Sequence record: OR844650
Source of the DNA: Escherichia phage ECO103 4-12-1
Strand: one strand, 5' to 3'
Length of the DNA: 64,000 bases
The notes beneath the pieces are model-generated. The model had not been told where the DNA came from, did not search any database, and saw only the letters and a list, made by a program, of their open reading frames with translations. The translations under genes and the position numbers were made by a program. Positions 188-616 of this stretch are shown here, piece after piece (position 1 is the first letter of the stretch; each line of letters begins with the position of its first letter).

Positions 188-616
188 TTAGTACTGCGAA
201 TCTTCTTCGTCATCATAATATTCTTCATCATCTTGGTCTTCTACGCCATAAAATTCAAGTCCATAAGTTTCACACATCTCTTGAATTTTATCTACATCAG
301 TATCCAGATATGAATCAAAATTACCACTTAGACTTACTACATCAATAAAAGTTTTCGTGTCAGTACTTGCATAGATGATATCATATTTCAATGATTCTAC
401 TTTAGAATCAATTCGTGTCTGTAATTCATAGATATTAATCCAAGAATCACTATCAATATTACATCTCCATACGTTAGTATCATCCGTTTCTAGCTCAGGT
501 ATATAGTCAAGAGAAGATACCATGTCATCCATAATACCATCATCGTTCAACAATACATCCATAACTTCTAAAGTTTCTTGGTCACAAATAAAAGCAATAC
601 TAGATCTCAATTCCAT
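188..616 (-). CDS. small highly acidic protein (D/E-rich, ends DQDDEEYYDDEEDSQY); function unknown
   Basis: 142-aa ORF; AAGGA upstream of ATG; downstream of helicase gene. Confidence 0.5.
   Translation of the reverse strand: MELRSSIAFICDQETLEVMDVLLNDDGIMDDMVSSLDYIPELETDDTNVWRCNIDSDSWINIYELQTRIDSKVESLKYDIIYASTDTKTFIDVVSLSGNFDSYLDTDVDKIQEMCETYGLEFYGVEDQDDEEYYDDEEDSQY

What the first reader, a model, noticed from the sequence alone, without database searches (positions are those of the whole stretch)
188..616. Very acidic small protein behind its own early-type promoter: candidate DNA mimic or anti-defence protein
Seen: a 142-aa protein, strongly D/E-enriched with an acidic C-terminal tail, transcribed from a GTGATATAATG-type promoter downstream of the helicase gene. 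Established: phage DNA-mimic anti-restriction proteins such as Ocr and Arn are small and highly acidic. Inference only: possible anti-restriction or anti-defence function.
Basis: inference. Interest (0 to 1): 0.45.

Follow-up and report, generated by a model that had tools for sequence, protein, structure and literature searches.

The report
Hyper-acidic protein in jumbo-phage recombination module
A real, very acidic 142-residue protein of unknown function sits at a fixed place among the DNA-recombination and replication genes of Rak2/121Q-type jumbo phages; it may act as a negatively charged decoy for a DNA-binding protein, but nothing links it to early anti-restriction.

Summary
ORF 188-616 (minus strand) encodes a 142-aa protein with 28% D+E, net charge -33 and pI about 4.05. 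It is the most acidic of 48 ORFs in the window and has its own extended -10 promoter.

The window is an Asteriusvirus jumbo coliphage (121Q/PBECO4/G17 type). The gene is 121Q gp11 / CBB_282, in phrog_16541 (function unknown).

About 79 homologue clusters keep three features:
- an alpha/beta ferredoxin-like core, mean net charge -20;
- a disordered polyacidic tail, mean net charge -12;
- an aromatic residue within the last five positions (78 of 79).

In every lineage inspected the gene lies in the order UvsX, UvsY, ExoX-like exonuclease, UvsW-like helicase, [acidic gene], conserved 165-aa gene. Two sister lineages (PA5oct, Atu_ph07) keep the module but lack the gene.

The promoter belongs to a phage-specific class (GGGAnA-N13-TGnTATAAT) that also drives SSB/UvsX, RNase H and gp55/47/46-type genes. 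That is the DNA-metabolism class, not the classical early class.

My best reading (confidence 0.38) is an electrostatic decoy or regulator tied to recombination-dependent replication, target unknown. An Ocr-like early anti-restriction role is unlikely.

The parts
188..616 (-). CDS of the 142-aa hyper-acidic protein (stop codon included). It is the orthologue of 121Q gp11, G17_00295, phAPEC6 gp199c and CBB_282, and belongs to phrog_16541.
245..616 (-). Codons 1-124: globular alpha/beta (ferredoxin-like) core, net charge -22. Four positions are acidic in at least 96% of 25 diverse members (D79, D86, D92, D101); D101 is the only invariant residue.
   Evidence: AF2 model with pLDDT 79-91 over most 10-residue blocks of the core
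191..244 (-). Codons 125-142: disordered polyacidic tail VEDQDDEEYYDDEEDSQY, net charge -11, ending in Tyr.
   Evidence: pLDDT below 50 for residues 126-142. Tail acidity and an aromatic residue in the last five positions in 78 of 79 homologues.
628..632 (-). Shine-Dalgarno sequence AAGGA, 11 nt before the ATG.
   Evidence: read directly from the sequence
651..659 (-). Extended -10 promoter element TGATATAAT (TATAAT at 651-656).
   Evidence: The orthologous promoter Porf_282 is listed for phage CBB (PMC5259590, Table S6).
673..678 (-). -35-position element GGGATA of the phage-specific promoter class GGGAnA-N13-TGnTATAAT. It lies inside the hairpin.
   Evidence: 5 sites against 0.03 expected, all on the minus strand
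663..683 (-). GC-rich hairpin (ACAGCGGG-AUAAA-CCCGCUGU) that overlaps the helicase stop codon. It is terminator-like with a weak U tract (UUUGUGAU).
   Evidence: annotated as a terminator in G17
1..178 (-). 5' part of the next gene (121Q gp12, 165 aa). It starts 9 nt after the acidic ORF and is probably co-transcribed. It is very conserved and of unknown function.
672..2156 (-). UvsW-like SF2 helicase, the upstream neighbour in every lineage examined.
2172..2990 (-). DnaQ/ExoX-like 3'-5' exonuclease. At this locus its presence coincides with that of the acidic gene.

Best explanation
What it is. The ORF is a genuine gene for a two-part polyanionic protein. One part is a compact alpha/beta ferredoxin-like domain of about 124 residues (net charge about -20). 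The other is a flexible polyacidic tail of about 18 residues that ends in an aromatic residue.

How it is expressed. It is transcribed, probably together with the genes downstream, from a phage-specific promoter class shared with the phage's DNA-replication and recombination genes. Expression with DNA metabolism is inferred from the promoter class; no RNA data were available.

Proposed mechanism (inferred). It acts stoichiometrically as an electrostatic decoy for nucleic acid. The acidic surface and tail occupy the basic DNA- or ssDNA-binding site of a protein that would otherwise act on replicating or recombining phage DNA. The C-terminal aromatic residue serves as an anchor, in the manner of SSB, T7 gp2.5 and gp4 tails.

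Candidate targets. The target is unknown. Candidates are host end-processing or nucleoid proteins (RecBCD, H-NS, HU, SSB-interacting proteins; a Gam/gp5.9/Arn-like role) or one of the phage's own neighbours.
For: Shown:
- Extreme acidity that is conserved across the family in both core and tail: 79 members, core mean -20 (range -27 to -13), tail mean -12, only 12 K/R among 1731 tail residues.
- An aromatic residue within the last 5 positions in 78 of 79 members, and at the very last position in 64 of 79.
- A confident folded core and a disordered tail.
- Composition is conserved while sequence diverges faster than in most neighbours. Identity to three distant relatives is 46/31/25% for this protein, against 72/58/59% for the helicase, 79/64/61% for UvsX and 77/58/57% for gp12; only the exonuclease diverges as fast, at 48/32/32%. 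This fits a function that depends on charge.
- A fixed position in the recombination module in all 8 lineages inspected.
- A promoter class shared with SSB/UvsX, RNase H-like and gp55/47/46-type genes.
- The gene is dispensable for the module as such: PA5oct and Atu_ph07 keep helicase, gp12, primase and DnaB but lack it. This favours an accessory modulator over a core replisome part.

From my own knowledge, not tested here: lambda Gam and T7 gp5.9 are DNA-mimicking RecBCD inhibitors encoded inside recombination/replication gene blocks.
Against: - No partner, binding or phenotype is known.
- There is no fold or sequence similarity to any characterised DNA mimic.
- Coordinates of the model were not available, so DNA-like charge spacing could not be examined.
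- A strictly conserved position next to the helicase and exonuclease is equally compatible with a non-mimic subunit role.
- Four nearly invariant Asp residues (D79, D86, D92, D101) could instead mark a metal site.
- The co-variation test for one specific partner idea (the SSB tip) failed.
Confidence: 0.38

Rival explanations
1. It is a dedicated subunit or adaptor of the phage's own recombination/replication machinery and not a decoy. It would bind the UvsW-like helicase, the ExoX-like exonuclease, UvsX or the conserved gp12-16 proteins. The acidic-aromatic tail would serve as a recruitment handle, as the SSB C-terminal tip, the T7 gp2.5 tail and the T4 gp32 A-domain do.
For: - Invariant synteny UvsX, UvsY, exonuclease, helicase, [acidic gene], gp12 in 8 of 8 lineages.
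- The gene is present in all 71 Rak2-like phage records found.
- Its presence coincides with the exonuclease at this locus. PA5oct and Atu_ph07 lack both there.
- Its divergence rate matches that of the exonuclease: 46/31/25% against 48/32/32%.
- It shares the DNA-metabolism promoter class.
- The CBB authors report that clamp, gp62 and gp59 equivalents have not been identified in these phages.
Against: - Sister lineages run the same module without it.
- It diverges much faster than the helicase, UvsX and gp12.
- The PA5oct-type exonuclease homologue, located elsewhere in that genome, has no acidic neighbour.
- The non-acidic C-terminal tip of the gp32-like SSB is equally conserved in phages without this gene, so a partnership specific to that tip is not indicated.
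- It has no OB fold and no similarity to known replisome parts.
Confidence: 0.3
2. It is a classical anti-restriction or anti-defence DNA mimic of the Ocr, ArdA or Arn kind. It would be made to block type I R-M, BREX or McrBC-like systems at the onset of infection.
For: - It is small and as acidic as Ocr.
- The best structural match is Api92/YubB (DUF1281). That family is encoded in the region of plasmid F that I recall as the leading region, about 3 kb upstream of an annotated antirestriction gene and near ssb and psiB. In a Pantoea plasmid it is listed in the same 15-kb fragment as an antirestriction gene.
- It has its own strong extended -10 promoter.
Against: - The promoter class is the one used for DNA-metabolism genes, not the classical RpoD-like promoters that cluster in the presumed early region in CBB.
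- The gene is core to its clade and fixed in position inside the recombination module, not in a variable early region.
- There is no sequence or fold match to Ocr, ArdA, Arn or any other known mimic, and no PADLOC hit.
- Profile comparison with YubB/DUF1281_C is not significant, at probability 2.4%.
Confidence: 0.12
3. It is a metal-binding or catalytic small protein, or a chaperone for basic proteins. The conserved aspartate cluster would be the functional site, and the bulk charge would be secondary.
For: D79, D86, D92 and D101 are acidic in 96-100% of diverse members, and D101 is the only invariant residue. hhalign places F100-D101 opposite the nearly invariant F-D of the DFDTP motif of DUF1281_C, although the match is not significant.
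Against: - No conserved His, Lys, Arg or Glu that would complete an active site.
- The conserved tail would be left unexplained.
Confidence: 0.08

Closest known systems
phrog_16541 / 121Q gp11 / CBB_282 / RaK2 H6X3S6 (uncharacterised jumbo-phage family)
   Same: Full-length match at E = 1.2e-76. It is 100% identical to 121Q gp11 and to most Asteriusvirus orthologues. It is annotated 'hypothetical' in every record inspected.
   Different: Nothing differs: this is the family it belongs to. No function has been assigned.
Api92 / YubB ferredoxin-like proteins (Pfam DUF1281, PF06924, plus DUF1281_C, PF18406; PDB 2IJR; split yubA/yubB region of plasmid F)
   Different: - 5% identity, no Pfam hit, and hhalign probability 2.4%.
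- No N-terminal DUF1281 domain.
- F-plasmid YubB has no polyacidic tail of this kind: its C-terminus is only mildly acidic (...SSPTDDDELPEVTAPEWIVDKVAHYGG).
T7 Ocr, ArdA, T4 Arn (DNA-mimic anti-restriction proteins)
   Same: Small size and extreme net negative charge. Ocr also ends in an acidic tail (from an Ocr sequence I recalled).
   Different: - Unrelated fold: Ocr is all-helical (my knowledge), this protein is alpha/beta.
- None of the three appears among the sequence or structure matches.
- Different genomic setting and promoter class.
Lambda Gam and T7 gp5.9 (DNA-mimic RecBCD inhibitors encoded within recombination/replication gene blocks)
   Same: An acidic protein encoded among recombination and replication genes and conserved within its phage group. 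This is an analogy of setting, taken from my own knowledge.
   Different: No sequence or fold similarity. RecBCD inhibition was not tested.
Acidic C-terminal tails of SSB-type proteins (E. coli SSB-Ct DDDIPF, T7 gp2.5 and gp4 tails ending in Phe, T4 gp32 A-domain)
   Same: A disordered polyacidic tail whose last residues include a conserved aromatic (78 of 79), encoded among replication genes.
   Different: The globular part is not an OB fold and is itself strongly acidic, so it is unlikely to bind ssDNA. The terminal residue is mostly Tyr or Trp rather than Pro-Phe.
T4 UvsW.1 (small protein encoded directly downstream of uvsW)
   Same: Same position immediately after the UvsW-type helicase gene. 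UvsW.1 is described as the helicase's potential DNA-binding partner in PMC7824862.
   Different: UvsW.1 is described there as a small trihelical protein. This protein is twice as long (my recollection of UvsW.1's size), alpha/beta and hyper-acidic. No UvsW.1 entry appears among the sequence or structure matches to solved structures.

Membership tests
phrog_16541 (Rak2-like jumbo-phage hypothetical protein) | Full-length match to the family profile | tested here: met
   E = 1.2e-76, residues 1-142 against profile positions 1-143 of 145
Ocr (T7 gp0.3) DNA mimic | Sequence or structural similarity to Ocr (all-helical dimer that imitates bent B-DNA) | tested here: not met
Ocr (T7 gp0.3) DNA mimic | Small, strongly net-negative protein | tested here: met
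   142 aa, net charge -33, 0.232 per residue. Ocr is 0.239 per residue, from a recalled sequence.
Ocr (T7 gp0.3) DNA mimic | Immediate-early expression from classical host promoters at the leading genome end | tested here: not met
   The promoter has GGGATA at -35 and belongs to the class that drives DNA-metabolism genes. The gene lies inside the recombination module. No RNA data are available.
Ocr / ArdA / Arn anti-restriction proteins | Inhibition of type I R-M, BREX or McrBC | not testable with these tools
   Needs plating assays.
ArdA and Arn | Sequence or fold similarity to ArdA or Arn | tested here: not met
   Neither appears in the hit lists. No Pfam hit.
Lambda Gam / T7 gp5.9 RecBCD inhibitors | Sequence or fold similarity | tested here: not met
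   Neither appears in the hit lists.
Lambda Gam / T7 gp5.9 RecBCD inhibitors | Encoded within the phage recombination/replication gene block | tested here: met
   The gene lies between the UvsW-like helicase and the gp12...primase/DnaB block, downstream of SSB, UvsX, UvsY and the exonuclease.
Lambda Gam / T7 gp5.9 RecBCD inhibitors | Binds and inhibits RecBCD | not testable with these tools
   Needs biochemical tests or in vivo assays.
Api92 / YubB (DUF1281 + DUF1281_C) | Match to Pfam PF06924 or PF18406 | tested here: not met
   No hit for the query or for any of 24 homologues at E up to 10. The positive control, F-plasmid YubB, hits both families.
Api92 / YubB (DUF1281 + DUF1281_C) | Profile-profile homology | tested here: not met
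   hhalign of A2 against A11: probability 2.4%, 31 columns aligned. The YubB alignment had low diversity, so the test is weak.
Api92 / YubB (DUF1281 + DUF1281_C) | Fold similarity to PDB 2IJR | tested here: met
SSB-type acidic C-terminal tail | Disordered polyacidic C-terminus with a terminal aromatic or hydrophobic anchor | tested here: met
   pLDDT below 50 for residues 126-142. Tail net charge -11. An aromatic residue in the last 5 positions in 78 of 79 members.
SSB-type acidic C-terminal tail | OB-fold ssDNA-binding body | tested here: not met
   Ferredoxin-like alpha/beta model with no OB-fold hits. The core carries net charge -22.
T4 UvsW.1 | Small helical protein encoded just downstream of uvsW | tested here: not met
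   The position matches, but the fold is alpha/beta and no UvsW.1 entry appears among the matches to solved structures.

The most novel reading that the evidence does not exclude
The protein is a mimic of the SSB tail. Its polyacidic tail, ending in an aromatic residue, would imitate the C-terminal tip of host SSB (DDDIPF). It would titrate host SSB-interacting proteins such as RecQ, RecJ, ExoI, PriA, RecG and Ung away from phage DNA. The phage's own gp32-like SSB would be unaffected, because it carries a different, non-acidic conserved tip (...SASALVARLKQQGK), giving an orthogonal 'tip code'. A new DNA-mimic fold derived from the Api92/YubB scaffold of plasmids would also follow from this reading.
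Probability: 0.08. Interest if true: 0.75.

Novelty: new variant of a known kind. Interest (0 to 1): 0.4.

Why it matters
Rak2/121Q-type jumbo phages are candidates for phage therapy, yet the phAPEC6 authors report 83% of predicted gene products as of unknown function. This gene is present in every member of that clade found here, and it sits inside the recombination-dependent replication module.

If it is a decoy for a host nuclease or nucleoid protein, it would add a new fold to the DNA-mimic repertoire. It would also point to a host function that these phages must neutralise while they replicate.

If it is an internal regulator, it would be a new accessory factor of UvsX/UvsW-type recombination. 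It could also give a first functional handle on the Api92/YubB (DUF1281) fold, which is found on plasmids, integrative elements and giant viruses.

As it stands, it is one of many acidic hypothetical phage proteins, but it is now a well-defined and testable one.

Tried and rejected
1. Sequence searches against Pfam, PADLOC and all PDB chains, with the single protein and with a 24-sequence profile, gave nothing significant. The best hits were YihI at E 0.06 and 4r03 at E 0.16.

2. Foldseek against the PDB gave nothing below E 0.08. The afdb50 library was unavailable.

3. Homology to YubB/DUF1281_C. I located the split DUF1281 genes on plasmid F, confirmed them with Pfam, collected homologues and ran hhalign. 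The probability was 2.4%, so homology is not demonstrated.

4. 'Acidic tail supplied in trans to a tail-less SSB'. The gp32-like SSB does lack an acidic tail. However, the same non-acidic tip is conserved in a PA5oct-like phage, an Atu_ph07-like phage and SCTP-2; the acidic gene was not detected in these groups, and its slot was directly checked in PA5oct and Atu_ph07. There is therefore no co-variation.

5. 'It travels with the exonuclease'. The PA5oct-type exonuclease homologue lies elsewhere in that genome and has no acidic neighbour. The coincidence at this locus may simply reflect phylogeny.

6. The PA5oct gp268 protein (83 aa), which occupies the same slot, is not acidic and is not detectably homologous (hhalign 0.5%).

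7. IMG/VR scans with two sub-family alignments found no confirmed loci, and one alignment was too diverse to search with. Context was obtained instead by exact-protein look-ups.

8. No Rfam family matches the region.

9. Literature searches turned up no work on this protein and no RNA-seq data set for Rak2-like phages. PA5oct has RNA-seq data but lacks the gene.

10. Virion proteomics. The phAPEC6 orthologue gp199 is not mentioned in the main text of the phAPEC6 virion-proteome paper; its supplementary files were not searched.

Full report
**Identity of the window and the ORF**

The first 3 kb of the window are 99.6-100% identical to Asteriusvirus jumbo coliphages such as IA-38, slurp01, G17, Sharanji, phAPEC6 and PBECO4, and 98.2% identical to 121Q.

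ORF 188..616 on the minus strand encodes 142 aa. It is 121Q gp11, G17_00295 and phAPEC6 gp199c, and is annotated 'hypothetical protein' in every record inspected.

Its composition is 25 Asp, 15 Glu, 4 Lys and 3 Arg. That gives 28% D+E, net charge -33 and pI about 4.05. Among 48 non-overlapping ORFs of the window it is the most net-acidic, about 4 sd above the mean. Its G+C content (31.7%) is close to that of its neighbours at 33-36%, so it does not look recently acquired.

**Transcription signals**

On the minus strand the helicase stop codon lies inside a GC-rich hairpin at 663-683. The stem has 8 bp, and the 55-nt stretch around it folds at -15 kcal/mol with z = -3.1. The hairpin is annotated as a terminator in G17.

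The hairpin is followed directly by a perfect extended -10, TGATATAAT, at 651-659. An AAGGA ribosome-binding site follows at 628-632, and the ATG is at 616.

The site is one of five matches to GGGAnA-N13-TGnTATAAT, all on the minus strand, against 0.03 expected by chance. The other four matches lie upstream of:
- the gp32-like SSB, followed by UvsX and UvsY (two of the four, in tandem);
- a 345-aa ORF that I read, from its sequence, as RNase H/FEN-like (not scanned against a family library);
- a 279-aa ORF followed by two ORFs whose order matches CBB_244 (gp55-like sigma factor), CBB_245 and CBB_246 (gp47 and gp46). I infer these identities from the CBB gene order; I did not scan the three proteins.

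The CBB paper (PMC5259590) lists the orthologous promoter Porf_282 (TGGAATG-N13-TGATATAAT) in its table of 'divergent RpoD-like' promoters. It ties that class to DNA-synthesis genes. The classical RpoD-like promoters with UP elements cluster in the presumed early region.

The promoter is therefore real and conserved. An extended -10 is also present before the orthologue in a metagenomic relative, and a TATAAT follows a hairpin in a Vibrio jumbo phage. A third relative has no evident promoter of its own. 'Early-type' is not the right label. The class looks like a DNA-metabolism (middle-type) class. That is an inference from which genes it precedes, because no RNA data exist for these phages.

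**The family**

A search of 5.8 billion clusters found 61 clusters of 139-146 aa, nearly all from Rak2-like phages. tblastn found the gene in 71 phage records with Escherichia, Klebsiella, Salmonella, Erwinia, Yersinia, Serratia, Cronobacter, Pectobacterium and Xanthomonas hosts.

A profile search of 1.84 billion representatives added about 18 more divergent members of 128-156 aa, at 19-41% identity.

Across 79 members:
- the core has mean net charge -20 (range -27 to -13);
- the tail has mean net charge -12;
- the tails contain 12 K/R among 1731 residues;
- an aromatic residue lies within the last five positions in 78 of 79, and at the very end in 64 of 79.

Only D101 is invariant. D79, D86 and D92 are acidic in at least 96% of diverse members. 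The remaining conserved positions are mostly hydrophobic core residues.

**Structure**

AlphaFold2 with a 24-sequence alignment gave mean pLDDT 79.5 and pTM 0.73. Residues 1-125 form a beta-alpha-beta-beta-alpha-beta-beta-beta-alpha domain, and residues 126-142 are disordered.

BFVD returned the RaK2 orthologue, a 127-aa viral protein without a name in the tables (A0A2I7S9M8), and weak matches to 'YubB ferredoxin-like domain' proteins. Foldseek against the PDB gave nothing significant. No known DNA mimic appears in any list.

I found the DUF1281/DUF1281_C genes of plasmid F. They lie between sopB and a DNA methylase gene, with an antirestriction gene, ssb and psiB further on. I recall this stretch as the leading region. 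Profile-profile comparison with that family was not significant, at 2.4%. The relation to Api92/YubB is therefore a fold resemblance and not demonstrated homology.

**Genomic context**

The gene order is the same in:
- the window and G17;
- CBB (from the published table);
- six divergent lineages recovered by exact-protein look-up;
- Vibrio phage 2.275.O.

That order is terminase, unknown gene, gp32-like SSB, UvsX, UvsY, RNase_T/ExoX-like exonuclease, UvsW-like helicase, [acidic gene], 165-aa gene, four more conserved genes, one gene on the opposite strand, two genes of about 320-345 aa (the second aligning in position with the annotated primase subunit of PA5oct), DnaB.

The gene is thus core to its clade and fixed in position. 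It is not universal to the module. PA5oct has an unrelated, non-acidic 83-aa ORF in the slot. In Atu_ph07 the helicase gene overlaps the gp12 homologue directly. Both lack the exonuclease at this locus.

Identity between the window phage and three distant relatives:

| Protein | Identity (%) |
|---|---|
| UvsX | 79 / 64 / 61 |
| gp12 | 77 / 58 / 57 |
| Helicase | 72 / 58 / 59 |
| UvsY | 48 / 50 / 51 |
| Exonuclease | 48 / 32 / 32 |
| Acidic protein | 46 / 31 / 25 |

The acidic protein diverges fast, while its charge and tail architecture are held constant.

**Interpretation**

Three things are established:
- the gene is real and conserved;
- it encodes a folded polyanionic domain plus a polyacidic, aromatic-tipped tail;
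- it is placed with, and by promoter class co-regulated with, recombination and replication genes.

The mechanism is inferred. Conserved charge with a fast-diverging sequence, and dispensability in sister lineages, point to an accessory protein whose activity depends on charge. The most likely role is a decoy that occupies the nucleic-acid-binding site of some protein acting on replicating phage DNA (confidence 0.38).

The target may be a host protein. From my own knowledge, Gam, gp5.9, Arn and gp5.5 show that phage DNA mimics aimed at RecBCD or H-NS can sit among replication genes. The target may instead be one of the phage's own proteins.

The main rival is a non-mimic subunit or adaptor of the helicase/exonuclease/UvsX machinery (0.30). 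It is supported by the invariant synteny, the coincidence with the exonuclease and the similar divergence rate.

The Ocr-like early anti-restriction reading (0.12) is weakened by the promoter class, the position and the clade-core distribution, although it is not excluded. A metal-site or enzymatic role (0.08) rests only on the aspartate cluster.

**Tests of specific ideas that failed**

- The gp32-like SSB of these phages has a P/A/T-rich linker and a conserved non-acidic tip in place of an acidic tail. The same tip is present in phages of groups in which the acidic gene was not found, so the two do not co-vary.
- The PA5oct-type exonuclease has no acidic neighbour.

**Novelty and score**

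The family is already catalogued as an uncharacterised PHROG, and the literature searches found no work on it. If the decoy reading holds, it would be a new structural variant of a known kind of protein.

Acidic hypothetical proteins are common in phages and no function is shown here, so interest is moderate (0.40). The family is nevertheless well defined and testable, and there is a small chance (about 0.08) of a more unusual mechanism, SSB-tail mimicry.

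Noticed in passing
window 651-678, 5827-5854, 5903-5930, 11134-11161, 38559-38586 (all on the minus strand): A phage-specific promoter class, GGGAnA-N13-TGnTATAAT, occurs 5 times against 0.03 expected. Two copies lie in tandem upstream of the gp32-like SSB gene. The others lie upstream of an ORF I read as RNase H/FEN-like, upstream of an ORF at the position of CBB's gp55-like gene (followed by the gp47/gp46 positions), and upstream of the acidic gene. It corresponds to the 'divergent RpoD-like' class published for phage CBB (TGAAACG at -35). This suggests a factor that recognises a non-canonical -35 element.
   Followed up: partly
window 4687-5739 (minus strand): The gp32-like SSB has no acidic C-terminal tail. 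It has a Pro/Ala/Thr-rich linker and then a conserved amphipathic, basic tip (...SASALVARLKQQGK). The tip is conserved in the Vibrio phage, the metagenomic relatives, a PA5oct-like phage, Phosso and SCTP-2. Its partner is unknown.
   Followed up: partly
window 1-178 (minus strand; 5' part of the gene); whole gene at L001 3681-4178: The 165-aa gene just downstream (121Q gp12, phrog_11279) is as conserved as the helicase: 57% identity to the Vibrio phage and 35-37% to PA5oct and Atu_ph07. It has no Pfam or PDB match. It is probably an essential, uncharacterised part of the replication module.
   Followed up: partly
L001 1198-1836 (just outside the window, same operon): A 212-aa protein falls in a PHROG annotated 'DNA polymerase' and has a weak hit to the finger domain of Pol III alpha. 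The CBB paper likewise notes a truncated Pol III alpha-like protein in these phages, at a different locus (CBB_328), and I did not test whether the two are orthologous.
   Followed up: no
window 2172-2990 (minus strand): A DnaQ/ExoX-like exonuclease with a C-terminal FGKHKG (QSregVF_b / ExoX-like_C) domain. At this locus it is present only in lineages that also have the acidic gene. PA5oct-like phages carry the homologue elsewhere in the genome.
   Followed up: partly
window 25737-26597 (minus strand): The second most acidic ORF of the window (286 aa, 31% D+E). It belongs to phrog_15696, 'virion structural protein'. I think it may be a scaffold- or core-type protein, but I did not test this.
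   Followed up: partly
window 49165-59166 (plus strand): A 3333-aa ORF that matches phrog_10938 (virion structural protein) over its full length.
   Followed up: partly
L004 7950-7982: In a metagenomic relative, the -10 element TGCTATAAT upstream of the orthologue sits in the loop of a perfect 11-bp palindrome (GTTACTGTTAT...ATAACAGTAAC). This may be an operator, or a combined terminator and promoter.
   Followed up: no
L008 12811-13781 (plasmid F, NC_002483.1 52810-53780): The DUF1281/DUF1281_C (Api92-like) gene of plasmid F is split into two overlapping ORFs and is missing from the PLSDB gene table. It lies between sopB and a DNA methylase gene.
   Followed up: partly
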